From a virus: 64,000 nt of DNA. The stretch is taken from positions 1 to 64,000 of IMG/VR virus record IMGVR_UViG_3300010167_000004, one strand, 5' to 3'. Position 1 is the stretch's first letter, and each line of letters opens with the position of its first letter. Shown in pieces: positions 6,553-51,524 of this stretch. The translations under genes and the position numbers were made by a program. A model generated the notes under the pieces. That model saw nothing but the letters and a program-made list of their open reading frames with translations. It was not told the DNA's origin and searched no databases.

Positions 6553-6825
6553 CTATGGTAAAATAAACGGAGGATACGGGACAAGACTTTTTGCATGAGC
6601 ATTAAGATTCTCACCCTCTAAATCCCGCCGCCGTCTCCTAACTGGCTGTGATATATCCCTTGTACGTTTCTTAAAAGGATACCTCTCAAATTCATCATCA
6701 AGTATTATTACCTGTTGTTGATCCTGTAAAGGAATATCACTCATCAGCCATTCCTCAATACGTGCTATATTTACATTTATGATATTCACCATTTCAGGAT
6801 CAATATCATTCGCCTCAAACCTCAT
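6553..6825 (-). CDS. small hypothetical protein
   Basis: 90-aa ORF with SD GAGGAA. Its start overlaps the giant ORF stop (TAATG). Confidence 0.65.
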   Translation of the reverse strand: MRFEANDIDPEMVNIINVNIARIEEWLMSDIPLQDQQQVIILDDEFERYPFKKRTRDISQPVRRRRRDLEGENLNAHAKSLVPYPPFILP

Positions 6826-9800
6826 TACATTTCCTCAATGTTCTGCACATCAGGACGTGTTACCAACGGAGCTGTCCTCGCCTCACTAATTACAGACACA
6901 TGCACTTTGAGTTGTCGAATGGACACAATTCCGTCTGACCAAATAAACAACTTCTCACTATTTCCTGCACCGTTGCGACCATTGAATCGGAAGTTGTAAT
7001 ATCCGCTTGACCCACTACGCCTGTCAAATAAATCTTCTTTAAGATACAATCGTGTAACTTCACTTTGTTTGAATCCTCCGACTGTTTGCAATTCAGACGC
7101 AAGATTAACTGTAACATAACGATCCCTCAATATCTTCTTCATTAGATCAGTTAAAGCAAAACTAATCTCCCATTCAAATTGACATTCTTTATTTTCATCC
7201 ACACCTAAGAAGGATGTCGCTAACTTAAACGGCTCAATATAATAACCATTGATAGGATTAACCCTACTGTTACCCCAATCATAATCCCTCTCCTCCCAAA
7301 AATCATTTAACTTATTATTCTCTGGCTTGAACCAATGTGTGAAGAATTTACCTGTACGCTCATTCATAGGTATACCATCATTCGGCCCGTCTAATGGATG
7401 TTCACCCTCACGGAACATATTCTCTTGCAATACAAAGCGATTGATTTGTCCACGTCTCGGCCCTTGTAGTGCAAGCCCTGACGCTAAACCATAGTATTTG
7501 AAATCCGCAGAAATCTTATCATTGTTAGAATTAATATATGGAAGTGACATTACATTCTTATTCGGAGGATATACCTGTCCAATGAAATCTTGATCAACAC
7601 GTATTATAGTAAGTCTATTTTCCATTATCGTTCTAAACGCCACTTCCTGTGACACAAAGTCCCATGTACCTGACACTACATCTTTGAATCTAAAGGCCGT
7701 ATTCACTTTCTCTAATGTATCTGATCCAGTAAATGTATAGAACGCATGAATAGTCGGAGAATAGAACCATGCAATCTTCGGAGTAGAGCCAAGATATGTC
7801 AAGCCTAATGTAGCCACAACATCTTGTAACGATATGGTTCCCATCGAAGCATTTACCCGTGAAATATATTCTGCATTAGCTCTATACGCCTGACCGTAAA
7901 TCACAAAGTCATGCGCTATCGGCTTTTTAGCACGTGGGTTTGTTGTACGCAAATCTGTTGTTAATGATGTAATACCATCAATAACATGCGCTTTATACGT
8001 AGCAATTCCCTGAACAGCGGCCGGGAGTATTGCCACATTATTATGTACTATCGGAATAGAGTATCTATAACCTTGCAAGTTTTCAGGAGATCGCCCCATA
8101 TTACCAAGATACCGTGAATATATCTGTACCTTATGTAAATATGTATCTAATTCAGGAACCGCCGTAAACTTCCCAAAGTATGATGTGGGAGGAGGAAGGG
8201 CTGCCGTCTTAAAGGCGTCCTGTGCAACATGACTAAATACAGAGTTTTGGACTTCTGCGTCTACACCAACCTCACCAGTTAATTTAGCAATCCTATTTGT
8301 GTAACCATCAAACCCATGATACGTCCCTAACTTTTTGATCGTGTTATACCCTGTAGTATTAAACAATACTGTATCACCAGAGAATACTCTTGGGAATAAT
8401 GTATCATTACTGATCTCATTCGTAACTTCCACACACGTGTATGTTGAGGCAACTAACGGTACTTCATTTTTAATTACCACATTACTCGGCGCACCATCCA
8501 ATATCAATGTATCCCGAACACTCACACCAAATATCTCACCAGCAATGGCAGAATAAAATAATTGCGCCGATGGATATACACAAAAGTCAAATAACCCCGG
8601 CTCACTGAATACTGGATAACCCGTATCTATTTTGACAGGTAAATCCAGTAACGAATCTTCGGCAAAGAAGCTATCTACACCTTGTACTAGGCTGCAATTA
8701 TCATAAAACTCTGTACGTTTTGTCTGTGTCGCAAACTTTAATATACGCTTCTCATAATTTCGTGTAATTGGAAAACCTTCATCCTTATACAATTCAACCA
8801 TCTCTGGTTGTGTGACAGGCATTAATTCAGTTTGATTAATTATATGTGAATGAATATCCTGTGTCGGATATGAATACACCATATGCTTAGAACCAACATT
8901 AACATTCGGCTGATACTCCATTTTAACATCAAATGTATTTACACCCTGCACGGGCTGTACTCCAACTAGACCAGTATTATTTATGTCAAGCGGCCCGACA
9001 AATGGAATTGGTATCGGCGGTATGCGGATTCCTAATTGAGAACCACCACCCTGCGCACCATGTGAATTACTATAACTACCAGATATACGGCTGCCCTGCA
9101 CAAATTGAATCTGTGTAAATCCGGGGCCAGCGAACACATTTTGATTTGCAGAAATACTATATACACCTGACAAACCAAGCCGAGATTTAGCAACAGACAA
9201 CGCACGTGGCTGGCTATGCATACCAGAATTAGAAGCATTAAACATTGCCATAATACCTTCGGCAATTTTATCTCTATAATACTTTCTATTCATAGAGATA
9301 CGACCTAACTTTGCTGATTCTTTTTCCTCTTGTGAATCCCACTCTGGCTCTTGCCATACTTTCTTCCATGCATCTTTTCGTCTCTGCGATTTCTCCTCTT
9401 GCGTTTCTCCTTCTCGCACACCATTCCAACGATCTTTCCTATTACTACTACTGTCATTAACTATGCGATCCATAACATTACCTAATTTATCAGCAGCTAT
9501 ACTTGTCGCTGTAGCCGTATTCGCCATAAGAGCCAACGCCACACGATACAATGTATTATTAATCATACCAGCTACACGTTCTGCCTTCTGTTCATCCTCA
9601 TAATAATCTTCATCCTCGGTCATCATATTAACAGACCAATAATTCAATACTGCCGCACTCGTTGTCCTCGCCCACACCCAAGCAGTAGCAAGGAATACCA
9701 CAAGAGGATTCGGGAAAATGAATTCACCTTTAACTCTGGTGTCAATCCCTGATCCTTTTGCACTTTCACTCGCTTTATATCTGCTAAACCGTAACGGAAG

Positions 9801-34878: not shown

Positions 34879-35652
34879 ATGGCACAGAGAGACATCCCAT
34901 CAAGCGGGGAATCATACTGGTCAGTGGCGCAAGAGTGCGCACTTAGAAGATGTAAGAAAAAATGTAAGGTGAAGTTTGATAGCAATAGATGTCAGAGATG
35001 CCGGGTGTATATCCGTAGGTATGCTCCTAACACTAACGAGAGTGCTATACAAATGCTCATGCTTCAAGCGGATACGGAAGCCTACAAATATAAATTAGAT
35101 CGCCGTGGGCATCATTTCAGATATGCTCTGGCAATGGTTATATTTATTTTGTTGGCAATATATGGCTGGAACCGTCACATAGAATTATATAATGTACCGC
35201 CATATCAATTCAAGACAAAGACACAAATAGTTGTACCACATAAGCCACCGACTCAAACATCTACAGCATATAATACATCGGCGCAAAGCGTTAAAGAGAA
35301 AATTGAATGGACATTAGAGCAAGTTGATTATGCAATGCGTAGACCAATAGATGTGAATGGTGACGGTCTGATAAATTGTATTGATGCTGCTGTATTATTT
35401 TATCAGCACTATCCTGATGATAAAAAATATGTAGGGATTATATTAAACTATAATCCAAGCACGGGCTTCAACCATCTATTTAATGTAGTATGGTTGAATA
35501 ATACATGGATAGGAATTGAGCCACAAGCTTATTATCTTGAAGGATGGTTTACAAAGTCATATTTTATGCGAGATTTTTGGCCTTCCTCTTTATATGATTT
35601 CACGATAAATGAAGATCAGACAGATAAATATACTAAATATGTGAGGAGGTAG
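34879..35652 (+). CDS. membrane-anchored transglutaminase-like / papain-fold Cys-protease-like protein with a dockerin/EF-hand-like loop
   Basis: TM segment YALAMVIFILLAIYGW, a DVNGDGLINCIDAAVLF loop, then NHLFNVVWLNNTWIGIEPQ, giving a Cys...His...Glu/Asp order as in transglutaminase-like cores. Confidence 0.45.
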   Translation: MAQRDIPSSGESYWSVAQECALRRCKKKCKVKFDSNRCQRCRVYIRRYAPNTNESAIQMLMLQADTEAYKYKLDRRGHHFRYALAMVIFILLAIYGWNRHIELYNVPPYQFKTKTQIVVPHKPPTQTSTAYNTSAQSVKEKIEWTLEQVDYAMRRPIDVNGDGLINCIDAAVLFYQHYPDDKKYVGIILNYNPSTGFNHLFNVVWLNNTWIGIEPQAYYLEGWFTKSYFMRDFWPSSLYDFTINEDQTDKYTKYVRR

Positions 35653-35654
35653 TT

Positions 35655-35720
35655 ATGTTCGGAATAGCATGTATAGGTATTGTAGTAACAGCTATACTTT
35701 GGATAGCAACAAGCGTGTAA
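35655..35720 (+). CDS. possible 21-aa hydrophobic micropeptide
   Basis: MFGIACIGIVVTAILWIATSV. SD GAGGAGG lies 5 nt upstream. Confidence 0.35.
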   Translation: MFGIACIGIVVTAILWIATSV

Positions 35721-35789
35721 TTCACAGGATAGTGATGTATCCTGATGGGTTGTTGTGCCAAACCTTTCCGTGTTGAGGGTTATCAATAC

Positions 35790-35881
35790 GGGCTTGAGCC
35801 TATAGTATATGGTTGTACGGTTGATGGTGGCTTCATACCTCCTTCCATCAACAGGTGTGGGTTCGATTCCCACTAGGCCCC
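35790..35881 (+). ncRNA. tRNA-like element: acceptor stem + canonical T-arm, but a non-canonical core with a long hairpin
   Basis: GGGCTTG pairs with TAGGCCC (2 G-T pairs). T-arm is GTGGG-TTCGATT-CCCAC at 35857-35873. The 60 nt in between hold an 8-bp stem GTTGATGG/CCATCAAC (35820-35852). I could not draw a D arm or a normal anticodon arm. Confidence 0.45.
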
Positions 35882-35955
35882 ATACAAAGCCTGTGAGTAA
35901 GTGCAGATGGTAGATGAACGCTATGCGTGAAATCACCGGAGCCATATCAGGCGGT

Positions 35956-36064
35956 ACGGAGAGCGGGGATCTAGGGCAATACGTCCCGACAAAATGCTAT
36001 CTAATCAACGGCATTGATTCTATACACGCTAGGTGATTACTCCGGGTGTAAGCCCCGGTTCCGT
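35956..36064 (+). ncRNA. structured module 1: ACGGAG...TTCCGT closing helix with an adjacent CCGGG-TGTAAGC-CCCGG hairpin
   Basis: Complementarity read directly. The internal hairpin is AATCAA/TTGATT. Confidence 0.4.
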
Positions 36065-36115
36065 TATCCTTCCTCAAAGGATGAATGTTGTAGGTGACGC
36101 ATGGGAACCTTCGGT

Positions 36116-36180
36116 ACGGAGAGAAACAATAGAGTGAATATGCAACAGCAGGGTGCAAGTCCCGGCTCCGTTATCTTTTT
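36116..36180 (+). ncRNA. structured module 2: ACGGAG...CTCCGT closing helix with an adjacent GGG-TGCAAGT-CCC hairpin, then TTATCTTTTT
   Basis: The 3' motif GGGTGCAAGTCCCGGCTCCGTTATC parallels GGGTGTAAGCCCCGGTTCCGTTATC in module 1. A T5 run follows. Confidence 0.4.
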
Positions 36181-36422
36181 ATCACGGTAAAGTTATACGA
36201 ATGACATCGCCTATAACTTTATGAATGTGAGTCCGATACCGTGTGGAGGGCCACCGCAAACCTGACGTTGTAGAGGAGCATTAGAACGCCGGAAGCTGAA
36301 CAGGGGACTTGGTGCAATGAGTAGGGGTAACAGACTGTATAAAACGCTTGGCGAATAACCTACTTAGAACCAGAGGCGTGACGGTGTGGAGAGACACACA
36401 TATTTTATTTCAGGGGGTATTT

Positions 36423-36788
36423 ATGACATCGGACATTATCATTGATTTATTTTTCTGGCATCAATTACTACAATTTGGTAGTGCCCTCCTAACTCCATTT
36501 GTAGCTGTGAGTATTGCGCTAACAGCAGTACTATGGATAATATCTATTGCATGGGAAGATGATGAATGGGTTACGTATAAGAAGGCTACACTATTTAAGT
36601 ATGCGCATATAGGATCACTTATAACTAGCATAGTTATTATACTATTTGCTACAGTAATTTTTTTCCGTGACGTATGGTTAAAGACAGAGATTGCTAAAGT
36701 AGTTGTCCCAAATAGTTTAGACATTATGGATTCTGTGAGCAGGGAAGTTAAGGAGATGTGGAATATACTAAAAGGGTTACTAAGATGA
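36423..36788 (+). CDS. membrane protein with 3 TM segments (holin-like topology)
   Basis: SD GGGGGTAT upstream of the ATG at 36423. Three hydrophobic segments. 121 aa. Confidence 0.65.
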   Translation: MTSDIIIDLFFWHQLLQFGSALLTPFVAVSIALTAVLWIISIAWEDDEWVTYKKATLFKYAHIGSLITSIVIILFATVIFFRDVWLKTEIAKVVVPNSLDIMDSVSREVKEMWNILKGLLR

Positions 36789-37015
36789 CAGCAGTATTTT
36801 GTGATATATGCGGTGAGGAGATTATCAAGCGTGACTACCAAATCATTAAATCGTCTGTGCTTTCATTTCATTTCAAAGATGTATGTAAAACATGTCAAGA
36901 TGCATACGATGTAGTGAATGAAAAACAAATGATCCTAACGCATATGCGACAAGTAGGCAGGGTTAAATCATCCCCAATATGTAGAGACAGTAGTGAATAT
37001 AAGGAGCCGTTATGA
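36785..37015 (+). CDS. zinc-ribbon protein
   Basis: CDICGEE...CKTC. ATGA overlap. Confidence 0.6.
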   Translation: MTAVFCDICGEEIIKRDYQIIKSSVLSFHFKDVCKTCQDAYDVVNEKQMILTHMRQVGRVKSSPICRDSSEYKEPL

Positions 37016-37551
37016 TCATAGCAATAGACTTCGATGGTACTTGTGTCACGCATGATTACCCTAATGTCGGTAAGGACATCGGTGCTGTACCAGTATTGAA
37101 ATGGTTAGTGAATGAAGGGCATCAGCTAATACTTTGGACGATGAGAAGTAAAGGTCAGTTACATGACGCTGTAGGATGGTTTGCTAAAAATGAAATCCCA
37201 CTGTACGGATGCAATAAAAATCCTAATCAGTCATGGTCAGATTCTCCAAAAGCATACGCTGAATTGTATATAGATGATGCGGCATTAGGCTGCCCTCTTA
37301 TGCTTGAACCGAATATATCACCGAGGCCATTTGTAGATTGGAAACGAGTAGAGTATAGACTTAAACAAATCTTTGCAGGACAATTAAAAATCGGACATAC
37401 TGCATTAGTACTGGGAGGAACTAATGAATCAGATCATGATGCTGATAATGACCATTGCGCTAGAGGTGGGGATTCCCCCACAATTTGCACTTGCCATAGC
37501 ACTAACGGAGAATCACACATTAAACCCAAATGCTGTCAGCAAGCCGAATAG
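37012..37551 (+). CDS. HAD-superfamily phosphatase-like protein
   Basis: IAIDFDGTCVTH gives the DxDxT motif I. SD AAGGAG. The 3' 128 nt overlap the next gene. Confidence 0.65.
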   Translation: MIIAIDFDGTCVTHDYPNVGKDIGAVPVLKWLVNEGHQLILWTMRSKGQLHDAVGWFAKNEIPLYGCNKNPNQSWSDSPKAYAELYIDDAALGCPLMLEPNISPRPFVDWKRVEYRLKQIFAGQLKIGHTALVLGGTNESDHDADNDHCARGGDSPTICTCHSTNGESHIKPKCCQQAE

Positions 37552-47706: not shown

Positions 47707-47985
47707 ATGATGTTACTTCGATGTCCCATTTGCAAAAAGGTTCTAGGCCCGGTTCTAGCGGCTGACGATACAGCAATTCACATACCGCAGAATAATGCGT
47801 ATGTTCAAAAATACATTTGCTCTGGCTGTATGAAACCATTGATTATTAAAGTAGAGGTAAACGATGGACAAAGACAAACTAACCCCTATACAGGGTATTC
47901 TTTCCAAAGGGGATCTCCAATGGGAGGCGGGAGCGGGGGGAACGGATGGTGGCATGGAGGCGGTGGGGGCGGTGGTAGAGGGTAA
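47707..47985 (+). CDS. zinc-ribbon protein with a Gly-rich tail
   Basis: CPICKK...CSGC, then GGGSGGNGWWHGGGGGGGRG. Confidence 0.5.
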   Translation: MMLLRCPICKKVLGPVLAADDTAIHIPQNNAYVQKYICSGCMKPLIIKVEVNDGQRQTNPYTGYSFQRGSPMGGGSGGNGWWHGGGGGGGRG

Positions 47986-48274
47986 GAAGTTTGATCAGGG
48001 TAAACTCCAATGGCATACCATAAACCCACTTATGGAACAAATAGAACAAGTAGTCAAAATACTAGAGGATGGTGTTAAGACGTACGGTCTGAACAACTGG
48101 ATGAATGTTACACCATTTGAAGAACGATATAGCAATGCCCTGATGCGGCATGTCACCGCATACATGAAGGGTGAGATTACAGATCCTAACAGTTGCCGTC
48201 ATCATCTAGCTCATGCTATATGTAATTGTTTGTTTCTAATGCACGGAGGAAATAACAATGCCGAAACAGAATAA
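47864..48274 (+). CDS. MazZ-like dATP/dGTP diphosphohydrolase-domain protein (start uncertain; alternative ATG at 47954)
   Basis: KKFDQGKLQW...GVKTYGLNNW...ALMRHVTAY...DPNSCRHHLAHAICNCLFL matches my recollection of the K.D.GK...KYG..NW...RH...HLAH pattern. Confidence 0.6.
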   Translation: MDKDKLTPIQGILSKGDLQWEAGAGGTDGGMEAVGAVVEGKKFDQGKLQWHTINPLMEQIEQVVKILEDGVKTYGLNNWMNVTPFEERYSNALMRHVTAYMKGEITDPNSCRHHLAHAICNCLFLMHGGNNNAETE

Positions 48275-48458: not shown

Positions 48459-48612
48459 TTTAGAGTTAACACTAGAAGAATTAGCATTTATATCTAAGCA
48501 AGTGGATCGCTACATGGAATCTAAAAATCATCCATCTACTATTGCCCTCATGCTGCAAGAAAAAATAGAAGATGCCTCAATGAAACATACAAGGACACTA
48601 CGATGGACGTAA
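48433..48612 (+). CDS. small hypothetical protein
   Basis: SD GAGGAA upstream of the ATG at 48433. 59 aa. Confidence 0.5.
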   Translation: MDSIQPMINLELTLEELAFISKQVDRYMESKNHPSTIALMLQEKIEDASMKHTRTLRWT

Positions 48613-50405
48613 TAGCGGTAGACATTGAAGTACAAGAATCTAACCTTAACGACTTAGGGCCGGGGGAAATACGCAATGATGGATATATTCTATCTGTAGG
48701 TATCACCGGGCCAACAGGTACGGTTGTATATAACTACAATGATCCTAATGACTATGATCAAATAAAAAATATACTAGCAAATCCAAATACAATTAAAGTC
48801 ATGCACAATGCAGTATATGACGCTTCGTGGCTACAAAATGGGGCTGGATTCAAAATCAATGGGCCTATCCATGACACTATGGCTCAAGCAGCATTGATAA
48901 ACGAATATGCTGGACACTATGACTTGGATAGTTGTTGCTTACGTGAAGGTGTAGAAGGCAAGAACTATGAGGATACTATTGAACAATGGTGGCATGAGAA
49001 TGGATTCCAAGGCAAAGCAATCGCCAATCTTGCTACAATACCACAACATATTAGAGATAAATATAATGCGCAAGACGCTAAAGCAACGTATGAATTGTAC
49101 CATAATCAGAATGTGAAATTAAAAGCAATGCGCTTACAAGAAGCCGCAGAACTGGAATATGCACAGATACCTATTGTGGTGGAGATGCGCAAGAATGGTA
49201 TACGTATTGATATACCAAAGATTGATCAGTATACCATACAGACTCAACAGGAAGTAACAGAAGGATTGGCACATCTTGAAAGTAAATATGGTTTAACATC
49301 ATTGACAAAGCGTAAAGGGCCGGGGGCATTGCCTACTGTTATACAGGAACTTGGCCTAGCAGATCAGTGTGGTTCAACACCTACAGGACAATTAGCGGTG
49401 GGTGTTGAATCATTGTCACTTATTGATCACCCATTCATTGAAGCGGTGATGGCGTTAAAACGAAAGCAAACTATGTTAGAGAAGTATCTAACTTCTGCAC
49501 TTGTAGACTTTCGTATAGGAGATAGAATACATGGATCATTCAACCCTTACCTCTCTTACGAGGGTGGAACAATTACTGGACGATATAGTAGCAAGCAGCC
49601 AAACATGCAAAACTTTACTAGCCGAGAGGAGAAAGGCGGCGACATCATCAGAAGCGTCTTTCTCCCTGATGAGGGATGCTTACTTGGAAGCTTTGACTAT
49701 AAGCAGATTGAGTATAGACTCCTTGCGCACTTTGCAATCGGCCCCGGAAGTGAAGCGTTACGTGAGAACATACGCCAAGGAGCGGACTACCACAAGTTAG
49801 TACAATCCATGCTCGGATGGGATTTCCCTGACGCACGTAAGGTTGTTAAGAACTTTAACTTTGGTATGATATATGGTATGGGTTTGAATGGATTCAAAAA
49901 GAAGTTTGCATTGGAAGTACGCAAGGCAGCACGAGCCGTAGGCATGACAACAGATCAATACACCGAGAAGTATTATAATGAATATATGCGAAGGATGACA
50001 TTCATACGTCCTACTGTAAATAGCATACAGGTATTAGCAAGGCAGTATGGAAGTATCAGAAGTGTAGGTGGACGTATACACCGTCTACCACCGGACGGCA
50101 GGGACTATGCTATTGTCAACTATCTCATTCAAGGCTCCGCTGCTGACGTGCTTAAAATGGGGCTTAGAGATGGATGGAACGCTGGAGTATTCAACGTACT
50201 CAACCTCCATCTAACCGTGCATGATGAGAATGTATTCTCTATACCACGCACTAAAGAGGCTGTAGAAGCAGCACGAGAGTTTGAGCAACTAATGTCTAAC
50301 TGTTGCAAGGGATTAAAAATACCTATCAACATTGACGCAGAAGTAGGGCCAGATTGGGCGAATGTAGATAATCAGCAATGGGTACAATTACAAGAGGCTG
50401 TATGA
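48603..50405 (+). CDS. family A DNA polymerase with a 3'-5' exonuclease domain
   Basis: Exo I AVDIEV, Exo II HNAVYDASWL, Exo III YNAQDAKATYEL. Pol motif A FDYKQIEYRLLAH, motif B RKVVKNFNFGMIYGMG, motif C VHDEN. Confidence 0.9.
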   Translation: MDVIAVDIEVQESNLNDLGPGEIRNDGYILSVGITGPTGTVVYNYNDPNDYDQIKNILANPNTIKVMHNAVYDASWLQNGAGFKINGPIHDTMAQAALINEYAGHYDLDSCCLREGVEGKNYEDTIEQWWHENGFQGKAIANLATIPQHIRDKYNAQDAKATYELYHNQNVKLKAMRLQEAAELEYAQIPIVVEMRKNGIRIDIPKIDQYTIQTQQEVTEGLAHLESKYGLTSLTKRKGPGALPTVIQELGLADQCGSTPTGQLAVGVESLSLIDHPFIEAVMALKRKQTMLEKYLTSALVDFRIGDRIHGSFNPYLSYEGGTITGRYSSKQPNMQNFTSREEKGGDIIRSVFLPDEGCLLGSFDYKQIEYRLLAHFAIGPGSEALRENIRQGADYHKLVQSMLGWDFPDARKVVKNFNFGMIYGMGLNGFKKKFALEVRKAARAVGMTTDQYTEKYYNEYMRRMTFIRPTVNSIQVLARQYGSIRSVGGRIHRLPPDGRDYAIVNYLIQGSAADVLKMGLRDGWNAGVFNVLNLHLTVHDENVFSIPRTKEAVEAAREFEQLMSNCCKGLKIPINIDAEVGPDWANVDNQQWVQLQEAV

Positions 50406-50771: not shown

Positions 50772-50920
50772 AAACAAAAACATTCAAAATGCCACTTGCC
50801 CTATGGCCTAAGAAGTATCGGAAGTACACGTCATTTCGATACAGTATGAATCAAGTTGATGGTACAAAAGTGAAACGTCTTAAAGATGAAAAAGAGGAGT
50901 TAATGAAATATGTTAAGTAA
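50768..50920 (+). CDS. possible 50-aa basic protein
   Basis: MKTKTFKMPLALWPKKYRKY... ATGA overlap upstream. It overlaps the HD gene start. Confidence 0.4.
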   Translation: MKTKTFKMPLALWPKKYRKYTSFRYSMNQVDGTKVKRLKDEKEELMKYVK

Positions 50921-51524
50921 ATGGCTATTGGAACCTCATACAGAGAATGAGTATAAGGAAATGGTTTATGAAACATTATCAGTGCATAAGCAACAGTTAG
51001 ATGAGTTATGGAACTGGGTTTGTAGCACTGACTACTTCAAAGCACCAGCGTCAACGCAATACCACGGTGCTGAACCATTTGGTTTAGTAAAACATTCATT
51101 GGCAGTATGGGATGCTTTGAAAGAACATACGCAACATTTATTGCCGCCAGAAGTAGGCCGGGGTACAGATGCGTATGACCGGGACGGATTAGTGGCGGCG
51201 TTATTCCATGACGTTGTGAAATGTAATCTGTATAGAGAAGTACAGAAATGGCGTAAGGATAAAAACGGTAGGTGGGAGTCATATCCCGGCTATGAAGTTG
51301 ATGTGACACAGATACAAATTGATCATGGAGCAGAATCATTACGCCGTATTGAAAAGTATTACGAGTTTGAACATGAGGCATGGGCTATGGCGGTGGCCTA
51401 CCATATGGGGCCGCCTGATCAATATATAGCAAAAAAGCAATACTATCAGGCGATAGAGGCATATCCAGAAGTGTTATGTTTATATACGGCTGATGTATAT
51501 GCTACATTTATCACAGGATATTAA
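50910..51524 (+). CDS. HD-domain phosphohydrolase (YhaM-type HD)
   Basis: PASTQYHGAEPFGLVKHSLAV, AALFHDVVK, DHGAES. Confidence 0.7.
   Translation: MLSKWLLEPHTENEYKEMVYETLSVHKQQLDELWNWVCSTDYFKAPASTQYHGAEPFGLVKHSLAVWDALKEHTQHLLPPEVGRGTDAYDRDGLVAALFHDVVKCNLYREVQKWRKDKNGRWESYPGYEVDVTQIQIDHGAESLRRIEKYYEFEHEAWAMAVAYHMGPPDQYIAKKQYYQAIEAYPEVLCLYTADVYATFITGY

What the first reader, a model, noticed from the sequence alone, without database searches (positions are those of the whole stretch)
35721..36422. ~700-nt ORF-free, highly structured block: candidate large phage non-coding RNA
Genes in this window are packed tightly, often with overlapping stop and start codons. Yet there is no SD-led ORF on the plus strand between 35720 and 36423.

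The block contains:
- a tRNA-like element at 35790-35881
- two related modules at 35956-36064 and 36116-36171. Each is closed by an ACGGAG...YTCCGT helix with a GGG-TG(T/C)AAG(C/T)-CCC hairpin directly beside the 3' strand. This looks like an acceptor/T-arm minihelix. The second module is followed by T5.
- further perfect hairpins: ATCCTT/AAGGAT at 36066-36082, AATCAA/TTGATT at 36003-36019, and a C(TTCG)G loop at 36108-36114.

GOLLD and ROOL RNAs are described as phage-borne and adjacent to or containing tRNAs, so an ornate RNA of that kind, or a new one, is plausible. Alternatives are a decayed tRNA array or a long structured 5' leader for the membrane-protein gene at 36423.
Basis: partly seen in the sequence, partly recalled or inferred. 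Interest (0 to 1): 0.75.

Follow-up and report, generated by a model that had tools for sequence, protein, structure and literature searches.

The report
Array of phage tRNA-mimic small RNAs
The 700 gene-free bases are not one giant RNA but a string of small tRNA-shaped RNA genes, at the spot where two sister phages keep Y RNAs and a Ro60 protein, so this is a variant of a known theme.

Summary
The sequence features are real. The block is ORF-free and GC-rich. It holds a tRNA-like element and two repeated modules, each a closing helix with a T-loop hairpin beside its 3' strand.

It is not a GOLLD/ROOL-type large RNA. Rfam finds only tRNA, the whole-block folding z-score is about 0, and module number and content differ between relatives.

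- **T1 (35796-35881).** This is a conserved tRNA-shaped RNA with a grossly enlarged anticodon arm. Eleven of its 24 pairs covary across three phages. The UCA "anticodon" is not conserved and TGA is a normal stop codon, so it is not a suppressor or SeC tRNA.
- **T1 apical loop.** It conserves an anti-Shine-Dalgarno-like CUCCUU in four phages.
- **Modules A and B.** Their termini are identical to those of modules in a phage whose neighbouring protein is only 47% identical. Their interiors are unrelated.
- **3' end of the block.** A 92%-conserved 63-nt segment and a covarying terminator hairpin close it.
- **Sister phages.** In two of them the same slot holds arrays of Y-RNA-like modules followed by a Ro60/Rsr gene.

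The window has neither rsr nor the Y-module motif.

Best reading: an island of separately processed tRNA-mimic small RNAs whose partner is unknown.

The parts
35725..35744 (+). Hairpin CAGGAUA-GUGAUG-UAUCCUG just after the upstream coding region. The following UCCUGAU is shared with L014.
   Evidence: Sequence; MFE fold; alignment A2.
35768..35791 (+). Hairpin H0: CCGUGUUGA-GGGUUA-UCAAUACGG, preceded by the conserved UGCCAAACCUU.
   Evidence: z = -2.4. L014 has CCUACUG-UGGGUUA-UCAGUAGG at the same place, with the same loop and a changed but still paired stem.
35796..35881 (+). T1: a tRNA-shaped RNA. Acceptor, D and T arms are normal. The anticodon arm is an 8-bp stem (GUUGAUGG/CCAUCAAC) capped by a 17-nt loop, UGGCUUCAUACCUCCUU, which contains CCUCCUU.
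   Evidence: Rfam tRNA 41.7 bits with 22 extra nt in the anticodon arm. ARAGORN 'tRNA-SeC(tca)'. Homologs are L014:3660-3748, L002:6695-6790 and L047:10040-10130. 24 pairs, 95.7% paired, 11 with changes on both sides.
35882..35951 (+). Spacer. It contains UAAGUGCAGAUGG, which resembles the UAGUGCAGAUGG 5' motif of the Y modules in L014 and L073, but the GGUUACUUC part is missing.
   Evidence: Sequence comparison. A profile of the full motif finds nothing here.
35952..36072 (+). Module A: CGGU-ACGGAG...UUCCGU-UAUCCUU closing helix, with the T-loop hairpin CCGGG-UGUAAGC-CCCGG directly 5' of the 3' strand. The ~80-nt interior holds a D-arm-like hairpin and the AAUCAA/UUGAUU hairpin.
   Evidence: Repeat families D2 and D4; fold; descriptor scan hit 35955-36065.
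36066..36082 (+). Small hairpin AUCCUU-CCUCA-AAGGAU between modules A and B. Its 5' arm overlaps the conserved 3' tail of module A.
   Evidence: Sequence; MFE fold.
36112..36180 (+). Module B: CGGU-ACGGAG...CUCCGU-UAUCUUUUU, with the T-loop hairpin GGG-UGCAAGU-CCC. The 29-nt interior is purine-rich and unstructured, and a U5 run follows.
   Evidence: The termini (UCGGUACGG and GGCUCCGUUAUC) are identical to L002:7078-7147, while the interiors are unrelated.
36188..36221 (+). Perfect 10-bp hairpin UAAAGUUAUA...UAUAACUUUA with a 14-nt loop that starts CGAAUG.
   Evidence: Inverted repeat I11; z = -2.5.
36249..36383 (+). 3' element. A 63-nt core (36249-36311) is 58/63 identical to the L002/L074 phage. 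It is followed by a lineage-specific hairpin and the conserved CAGAGGCNUGAC.
   Evidence: All three + frames are closed. There is no excess folding energy (z = +1.2).
36384..36409 (+). Terminator-like hairpin GUGU-GGAGAGA-CACAC plus AUAUUUUAUU, just before the SD of the 36423 gene.
   Evidence: Terminator scan. L074 has GCUCG-GAGAGA-CGAGC + AAUUUU at the same place, with a covarying stem and the same loop.

Best explanation
The block is an island of several separate small RNA genes derived from, and mimicking, tRNA. It is read on the + strand, probably as part of the upstream early/replication transcript, and is closed by the hairpin plus U-run at 36384-36409.

Components shown here:
- **T1.** An L-shape-competent tRNA body whose anticodon arm has been replaced by a longer arm. 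That arm displays a conserved pyrimidine tract, CUCCUU.
- **Modules A and B.** Each is a 6-7-bp 'acceptor' helix coaxial with a T-loop hairpin. That is the minimal shape that RNase P, the CCA-adding enzyme and T-loop enzymes recognise (established knowledge). Their cores are unrelated to each other.

Inferred mechanism:
- Host tRNA-processing enzymes cut the transcript at these minihelices into stable 60-120-nt RNAs.
- These RNAs cannot decode, because none has an anticodon loop. They act as tRNA look-alike scaffolds or decoys for tRNA- or rRNA-handling proteins.

In two sister phages the same slot carries arrays of Y-RNA-like modules followed by a phage Ro60/Rsr gene. RNA surveillance or decay machinery of the Ro60/PNPase type, or tRNA-targeting host factors, is therefore the most likely class of partner. 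This phage has no rsr and lacks the Rsr-linked motif, so the partner here is unknown.
For: **Non-coding, + strand.**
- G-U pairs in conserved helices fit only the + strand.

**T1.**
- Four homologs all pass the Rfam tRNA cut-off with 22-30 extra nt in the anticodon arm.
- 11 of 24 pairs show compensatory change, against 0-1 in slid controls.

**Modules A and B.**
- The repeats are exact or nearly so within the window.
- Their termini recur in L002, where the adjacent protein is only 47% identical.
- The closing helix is kept through A-U to U-A and G-U changes.
- 4 of 5 T loops keep the U..A T-loop pattern.

**Synteny.**
- The order is p145, p257, [block], (rsr), p179, SLT, helicase.
- L014 and L073 have TROVE plus Ro60-vWA genes right after their blocks.
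- 15 modules in 4 rsr phages share an ungapped motif, (U)AGUGYAG-N6-RGUUACUUC.
- L014 also holds T1 and a tRNA-like RNA with an 80-nt Y-type insert.

**Family trait.** Similar odd tRNA-like RNAs occur in rsr-less relatives L013, L039 and L047.

**Terminator.**
Against: - There are no expression data, and no promoter-like site inside the block above chance.
- Thermodynamic z-scores of A and B are unremarkable (-1.0 and -0.6).
- Module B's T stem has an A-G mismatch.
- Only the termini of A and B are conserved, which could also reflect a DNA-level site or recent gene conversion.
- Only three or four related loci were available, so covariation for A and B rests on very few changes.
- The window lacks rsr, the Rsr-linked motif and the GNCGAAN0-1G motif.
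Confidence: 0.55

Rival explanations
1. The RNAs are true Y RNAs. They load a Ro60/Rsr protein supplied by the host, and the phage has dispensed with its own copy. They tether it to an exonuclease such as PNPase, as described for bacterial and Thermus-phage Ro60 RNPs.
For: - The block is positionally orthologous to the Y-module arrays upstream of rsr in L014 and L073.
- T1 and H0 are shared with the rsr-bearing L014.
- Y RNAs are known tRNA mimics and occur in phages (PMC4201824, PMC12135203).
- Fragments of the Y-module motifs persist: UAAGUGCAGAUGG, UUGUAGGUGAC, and the CCGUUAUCCUUCC tail.
Against: - The Rfam YrlA and Y_RNA models give no hit at E <= 10.
- The profile of the clade's Rsr-linked motif finds nothing in the block or in L002/L074.
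- There is no GNCGAAN0-1G motif.
- T1-like RNAs also occur in L047, and minihelix modules in L013, with no rsr in the fetched stretch.
- The host, and whether it has Rsr, are unknown.
Confidence: 0.15
2. The block is a decaying relic: a former tRNA / Y-RNA gene array that lost its partner gene rsr and is drifting, with no present function.
For: - The canonical Y motif has been lost.
- The interiors of A and B are unrelated to each other and to the L002 modules.
- Module B has an imperfect T stem.
- Folding z-scores are weak.
Against: - T1 keeps 95.7% of its pairs, with 11 compensatory pairs.
- Module termini and a 63-nt stretch stay 92-100% identical while the adjacent protein is 47% identical.
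- The terminator stem covaries.
- The phage packs its genes tightly, yet keeps 700 nt here.
Confidence: 0.12
3. The last third (about 36225-36410) is a cis-acting leader rather than a free-standing RNA. A conserved sensor or antitermination segment, followed by a terminator hairpin, gates read-through into the genes that start at 36423.
For: - The layout is a conserved 63-nt core, a variable hairpin, then a hairpin with a U-run immediately before the SD.
- The same arrangement occurs in L074.
Against: - No Rfam riboswitch or leader hit.
- No excess folding energy (z = +1.2).
- The downstream genes in the window (121 aa) and L074 (56 aa) are unrelated.
Confidence: 0.1
4. One large ornate RNA of about 700 nt, of the GOLLD/ROOL kind or a new one.
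For: A long ORF-free, GC-rich stretch next to or containing a tRNA-like element in a phage.
Against: - No Rfam hit.
- z is about 0.
- No long-range helices are conserved.
- Relatives have other module sets in the same slot, and the L002 phage has a real tRNA-Gln inserted among them.
Confidence: 0.03
5. T1 is a working UGA-suppressor or selenocysteine tRNA, as ARAGORN labels it.
For: ARAGORN call tRNA-SeC(tca); Rfam tRNA score above the cut-off.
Against: - ARAGORN's fold needs a poor D arm and a U-U pair in the anticodon stem.
- The covariation-supported fold has an 8-bp stem and a 17-nt loop.
- UCA is not conserved, and ARAGORN makes no call in L002 or L014.
- TGA closes 13 of 50 long frames, so it is not recoded.
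Confidence: 0.02

Closest known systems
YrlA / bacterial and phage Y RNAs (Ro60/Rsr partners; Rfam RF02553; Chen et al. 2014, PMC4201824; Thermus phage phiLo Yrl1/2, PMC12135203)
   Same: - They are small phage-borne tRNA mimics with T- and D-arm features.
- They are encoded in tandem on the same strand.
- In two sister phages they sit in exactly this slot, just upstream of a Ro60 gene.
   Different: - The window has no rsr.
- It has no GNCGAAN0-1G/CGAA bulged terminal stem and no RF02553 hit.
- It lacks the clade's UAGUGYAG..GUUACUUC motif.
- The topology is native, with ends at the acceptor helix. YrlA is permuted, with a closed acceptor and its ends at the anticodon side.
Deinococcus radiodurans Yrn1
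   Same: According to PMC4201824, Yrn1's T- and D-like elements lie in the native tRNA orientation relative to the RNA ends. T1, A and B are oriented the same way.
   Different: Yrn1 carries a Ro-binding bulged helix and is encoded next to rsr. Neither is present here.
Phage T4 stable RNAs 'species 1 and 2' (RNA C and D) in the T4 tRNA cluster.
   Same: They are non-decoding small RNAs embedded among phage tRNA genes. They have tRNA-like termini, are matured by tRNA-processing enzymes, and their function is unknown.
tmRNA tRNA-like domain; mascRNA/menRNA
   Same: They use an acceptor/T-arm minihelix as a handle for RNase P and other tRNA enzymes.
   Different: - ARAGORN and Rfam find no tmRNA here.
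- There is no G3-U70 pair and no tag reading frame.
- The mascRNA model scores only 19 bits against a cut-off of 42.5.
GOLLD / ROOL large phage RNAs
   Same: They are phage-borne, ORF-free and lie near tRNAs.
   Different: There is no model hit, no global structure, and the content is modular and interchangeable.

Membership tests
Canonical decoding tRNA (RF00005) | Cloverleaf with acceptor, D and T arms, and an Rfam score above the gathering cut-off | tested here: met
   T1 scores 41.7 bits against a cut-off of 29. The helices are supported by covariation.
Canonical decoding tRNA (RF00005) | 5-bp anticodon stem with a 7-nt loop (U33) and a conserved anticodon | tested here: not met
   - The anticodon arm carries 22 extra nt: an 8-bp stem plus a 17-nt loop.
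- The UCA triplet is not conserved in L014, L002 or L047.
- Modules A and B have no anticodon arm at all.
YrlA / Y RNA | Encoded next to, and on the same strand as, a Ro60/Rsr (TROVE) gene | tested here: not met
   tblastn with the L014 Rsr finds nothing in the 64-kb window. The feature is met in sister phages L014 and L073.
YrlA / Y RNA | Match to the Rfam YrlA (RF02553) or Y_RNA models | tested here: not met
   No hit at E <= 10 in 35500-36600. Even the rsr-linked arrays reach only 21-34.5 bits against a cut-off of 69.
YrlA / Y RNA | Ro-binding 5'-strand motif: GNCGAAN0-1G or GGUCCGA in a terminal bulged stem | tested here: not met
   No GNCGAAN0-1G in the block or in L002/L074. The only near match is AGUCCGA at 36230, with one mismatch. 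The motif would turn up in 31% of shuffles anyway.
Rsr-linked Y modules of this phage group (defined here from L014, L073, L075, L077) | Ungapped 5' motif (U)AGUGYAG-N6-RGUUACUUC inside a long terminal stem | tested here: not met
   An nhmmer profile of 15 modules gives no hit in 35.7-36.4 kb or in L002/L074 at E <= 100.
YrlA / Y RNA | tRNA-like domain with T arm and D arm | tested here: met
   T1 has both arms. A and B have a T-loop hairpin, and A has only a D-like hairpin.
YrlA / Y RNA | Physical binding to Ro60/Rsr | not testable with these tools
   This needs gel-shift or co-immunoprecipitation experiments.
GOLLD / ROOL | Match to RF01998 / RF03087 | tested here: not met
   No hit at the gathering threshold or at E <= 10.
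tmRNA | ARAGORN or Rfam tmRNA call with a tag reading frame | tested here: not met
   None found.
Intrinsic terminator | GC-containing hairpin followed directly by a U-run | tested here: met
   36384-36399 plus AUAUUUUAUU. The stem covaries with L074.

The most novel reading that the evidence does not exclude
T1 is the founding member of an undescribed class of phage RNA. It has a tRNA body, so it is processed, stabilised and perhaps delivered like a tRNA. Its enlarged anticodon arm presents a copy of the 3' tail of 16S rRNA, the anti-Shine-Dalgarno sequence. The apical loops read:
- window: AUACCUCCUUCC
- L047: GGCCACCUCCUUUUCC
- L002: GGCCACUCCUUUCC
- L014: GGACACUCCUUUUCC

Such an RNA could titrate Shine-Dalgarno sequences of selected mRNAs. 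It could also decoy factors or nucleases that act on the 16S 3' end. Modules A and B would be further tRNA-handle RNAs with other cargo.
Probability: 0.15. Interest if true: 0.8.

Novelty: new variant of a known kind. Interest (0 to 1): 0.5.

Why it matters
Phage tRNA genes are usually read as codon-usage helpers, or recently as counter-measures to tRNA-cutting defences. Here a family of ~60-kb metagenomic phages keeps a dedicated island of non-decoding tRNA look-alikes.

In two sister phages that island also holds multi-copy Y-like RNA arrays and a phage Ro60 gene. One of those RNAs (L014:3962-4107) has the YrlA design in unpermuted form.

If the RNAs are expressed, they give three things:
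- natural examples of the tRNA shape used as a processing and stability handle for other RNA cargo;
- a system for asking what Ro60-type RNPs and tRNA mimics do during infection;
- a testable candidate for an anti-SD mimic.

For annotation, it shows that ARAGORN's 'tRNA-SeC(tca)' call in such phages should not be taken as evidence of stop-codon recoding.

Tried and rejected
**Searches that found nothing**
- DNA searches of GenBank phages with the block and with 16 kb around it: no match.
- Exact-pattern scans for module and 3'-element sequences: none in IMG/VR, JGI metagenomes or GTDB genomes.
- Single-protein locus searches with the 257-aa protein and the helicase in IMG/VR: none.

**Searches that found only unrelated contexts**
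- The downstream 121-aa protein has no relatives.
- Homologs of the 257-aa protein mostly sit in other contexts without RNA blocks (L004-L012).
- A metagenome scan with the p179 alignment returned 80 loci, none from this clade.

**Alignments that failed**
- MAFFT could not align the modules or T1 plus L047 in register. Those comparisons were made by eye.

**Readings rejected**
- Large ornate RNA.
- Suppressor or SeC tRNA.
- tRNA with an intron: no U33 and no consistent anticodon after removing the insert.
- Protein-coding on either strand.
- MITE-like element: the interiors of the copies are unrelated.
- Membership of YrlA or of the clade's Y-module family.

Full report
**1. The observation**

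- **ORF-free and GC-rich.** Window 35721-36422 has no supported ORF. Its GC is about 0.50, against 0.33-0.40 on both sides.
- **Flanks.** It lies between a 257-aa gene (34879-35652) plus a 21-aa SD-led ORF (35655-35720), and a 121-aa membrane-protein gene (36423).
- **tRNA-like element.** ARAGORN reports one gene, 'tRNA-SeC(tca)', at 35796-35881. Rfam reports one family above its cut-off in the whole window, tRNA at 41.7 bits, at the same place.
- **No other known family.** A permissive scan (E <= 10) of 35500-36600 adds only a sub-threshold mascRNA hit on the same element. It finds no GOLLD, ROOL, tmRNA, intron, riboswitch or Y RNA.
- **Repeats.** CGGTACGGAGAG occurs twice exactly. A 28-nt GGGTGYAAGYCCCGGYTCCGTTATCYTT occurs twice at 86% identity.
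- **Structure claim fails.** The block as a whole folds no better than shuffles (z = +0.08 and +0.06). Parts range from z = -2.5 (two hairpins) to +1.2 (the 3' third).

The features exist as described. 'Highly structured' does not hold.

**2. Finding relatives**

- GenBank phages and exact-pattern scans gave nothing.
- The upstream 257-aa protein has metagenomic homologs. One of them (47% identity) sits on ENA contig L002 with the same upstream gene order and an ORF-free tail.
- The helicase 2.4 kb downstream has many relatives.
- An alignment-based scan of IMG/VR and two look-ups then gave three more loci:
  - L014 (helicase 78% identical);
  - L073 (71%);
  - L074 (80%).
- L074 overlaps the end of L002 by 82 identical bases, so the two contigs are taken as one phage.
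- The common gene order is p185, p145, p257, [RNA block], (rsr), p179, SLT, helicase.
- A more distant relative, L013 (64%), has only about 580 nt between the p257 homolog and the helicase.

**3. T1**

- **Architecture.** Homologs in L014 (49.8 bits), L002 (42.9) and L047 (36.3) all pass the Rfam tRNA cut-off. All have 22-30 extra bases in the anticodon arm.
- **Covariation.** On the three-way alignment the cloverleaf has 24 pairs and 95.7% of cells are paired. Eleven pairs changed on both sides. Slid controls give 0-1, and 0 of 500 shuffles reach the observed value.
- **Anticodon arm.** It is an 8-bp stem in the window (GUUGAUGG/CCAUCAAC). The cap varies in length.
- **Not a decoding tRNA.**
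  - ARAGORN's UCA sits in a fold that the covariation does not support.
  - UCA is absent from the homologs, which ARAGORN does not call at all.
  - TGA closes 13 of 50 long frames.
- **Conserved loop.** What is conserved in the cap is a pyrimidine tract. It reads CCUCCUU in the window, CACUCCUUU in L002 and L014, and CACCUCCUUU in L047. From general knowledge, this matches the anti-Shine-Dalgarno 3' tail of 16S rRNA.
- **Distribution.** A covariance model of T1 finds the family only in these phages among 0.9 Mb of related loci. Only one of the four, L014, has rsr.

**4. Modules A and B**

- **Shape.** Each is closed by ACGGAG/YUCCGU. A hairpin whose 7-nt loop fits the T-loop pattern (UGUAAGC, UGCAAGU) abuts the 3' strand.
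- **Counterparts in L002.** There are three modules of the same design:
  - 6793-6875, UACGGUG/CACCGUA, with a canonical T arm AGGGG-UUCGAUU-CCCUU;
  - 6908-7044, AGCGUAG/CUAUGCU, with CGUGG-UUCAAGG-CCACG;
  - 7078-7147, ACGGGGC/GCUCCGU.
- **Conserved ends, unrelated cores.** Window B and L002:7078-7147 share identical ends (UCGGUACGG; GGCUCCGUUAUC) but nothing in between. The fifth pair of the helix is A-U, U-A or G-U in different copies.
- **Wider occurrence.** Similar closing-helix-plus-T-hairpin units with UGCAANU loops occur in rsr-less L013 (6633-6716, in the same slot) and L047 (10127-10203). Other odd-length tRNA-like RNAs occur in L039, L044, L045 and L014.
- **Caveat.** The descriptor used for this scan is loose: 48 hits against about 23 in shuffles. 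Only the GC-rich hits are credible.

**5. The 3' end of the block**

- Positions 36249-36311 are 58/63 identical to L002/L074. This contrasts with 47% protein identity next door.
- All + frames are closed. The minus-strand 32-aa frame changes amino acids at most differences.
- Next come a lineage-specific hairpin, the conserved CAGAGGCNUGAC, and a hairpin plus U-run. That last hairpin is the only terminator-like site in the region. Its stem covaries with L074 while the loop GGAGAGA is kept.

**6. What sits in this slot in the sister phages**

- **rsr genes.** L014 has a 624-nt ORF-free block followed by a 493-aa TROVE plus Ro60-vWA protein (Pfam 5.7e-36 and 9e-14). L073 has a 428-nt block followed by a 485-aa TROVE/Ro60 protein.
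- **Module arrays.** Both blocks fold into series of long-stem modules.
- **Shared motif.** With two further phage rsr loci (L075, L077), 15 modules share an ungapped motif, (U)AGUGYAG-N6-RGUUACUUC.
- **Canonical and unpermuted YrlA.**
  - One L077 module has the canonical permuted YrlA layout (Rfam partial hit, 34.5 bits).
  - L014:3962-4107 is a tRNA (47.8 bits) with an 80-nt insert in the anticodon arm. The insert carries the 3'-strand-like motif and then the 5' motif. That is the YrlA design with the RNA ends at the acceptor instead of at the anticodon side.
- **Already known.** Phage Ro60 with upstream Y-like RNAs has been described (PMC4201824; PMC12135203). 98 GenBank phages have a TROVE homolog.

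**7. Is the window's block a Y-RNA array?**

Each test below comes out against:
- The window has no rsr.
- It has no RF02553 hit.
- It has no GNCGAAN0-1G motif.
- A profile of the clade's motif finds nothing in the block or in L002/L074.

Only fragments of the motifs remain: UAAGUGCAGAUGG at 35909, UUGUAGGUGAC at 36088, and the CCGUUAUCCUUCC tail.

T1-like RNAs and minihelix modules also occur without rsr. I therefore do not file the block as Y RNA. The shared slot and shared T1/H0 with L014 say that these RNAs belong to the same functional neighbourhood of tRNA mimics.

**8. Mechanism**

Shown:
- The block is non-coding.
- It is read on the + strand.
- T1 is under structural selection.
- The module termini and the 3' core are conserved.
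- The terminator hairpin covaries.
- The slot is syntenic with the Y-RNA/rsr cassettes.

Inferred:
- The block is transcribed with the upstream operon. No promoter-like site inside it rises above chance.
- Host tRNA enzymes mature the transcript at the acceptor/T minihelices into several stable small RNAs.
- Those RNAs act as tRNA-shaped scaffolds or decoys.

The identity of the partner is not known. Candidates are host Ro60/PNPase, tRNA-directed defence nucleases, and the ribosome or mRNAs through the anti-SD-like loop.

**9. Verdict**

This is a real, selected, non-coding feature, but it is a cluster of small tRNA-mimic RNA genes rather than one large RNA. It is a new variant of a known kind (phage tRNA mimics / Y-RNA-type loci) and of moderate interest. 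The anti-SD-like loop of T1 is the part most worth an experiment.

Noticed in passing
window 35655-35720 and 36511-36539: A 21-aa SD-led ORF (MFGIACIGIVVTAILWIATSV) lies just upstream of the RNA block. Its DNA (35677-35705) is 79% identical to a stretch inside the 121-aa membrane-protein gene just downstream (family D3). This may be a duplicated transmembrane segment flanking the block, as if the block had been inserted or rearranged there.
   Followed up: no
window 47864-48274, 48603-50405, 50910-51524: A dATP/dGTP diphosphohydrolase N-terminal domain (PF18909, 4e-24) and an HD-domain protein flank the family A DNA polymerase. This gene set is of the kind seen in phages that remodel nucleotide pools or use modified bases.
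   Followed up: no
window 37012-37551 (p179): This is a BT0820-family HAD-type phosphatase-like protein (NCBIfam 1e-23, below the cut-off; PDB 2obb 1e-18). In L014 its homolog comes right after rsr.
   Followed up: partly
L014:7001-9700, L073:8001-10988, L074:1793-4501: The helicase homologs of the three closest relatives carry an intein with an HNH endonuclease (Pfam PF14890 and PF13392). The window's 640-aa helicase is intein-free.
   Followed up: no
L014:3962-4107: This RNA scores as a tRNA (47.8 bits) and has canonical acceptor, D and T arms. Its anticodon arm is replaced by an 80-nt hairpin carrying the Rsr-linked motifs in reverse order. In effect it is an unpermuted YrlA.
   Followed up: partly
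L077:574-922: A phage-encoded tmRNA (Rfam 119.5 bits) lies about 1 kb upstream of that phage's array of Y-like modules and its rsr gene.
   Followed up: no
L039:9783-9920 and L047:10318-10482: These are homologous 138-165-nt tRNA-like RNAs with a covarying closing helix and a canonical T arm. They share the conserved internal blocks AURAGUAAGGCGYAGGUUCCUGCG and UCGGAUUGGCU. Rfam has no match for the L047 copy at E <= 0.1; L039 was not scanned.
   Followed up: no
L014:9972-10044: A 73-nt near-canonical cloverleaf with T loop UGCAAAU and C at position 33. ARAGORN misses it. The UGCAANU T-loop variant recurs in tRNA-like RNAs of this phage group, including window modules A and B.
   Followed up: no
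L013:6445-6480: A hairpin CUCGCAG-CCUUUCCCUUCCUUUAAU-CUGCGAG with a pyrimidine-rich, anti-SD-like loop. It lies at the start of the short non-coding stretch that occupies the block's slot in this more distant relative.
   Followed up: no
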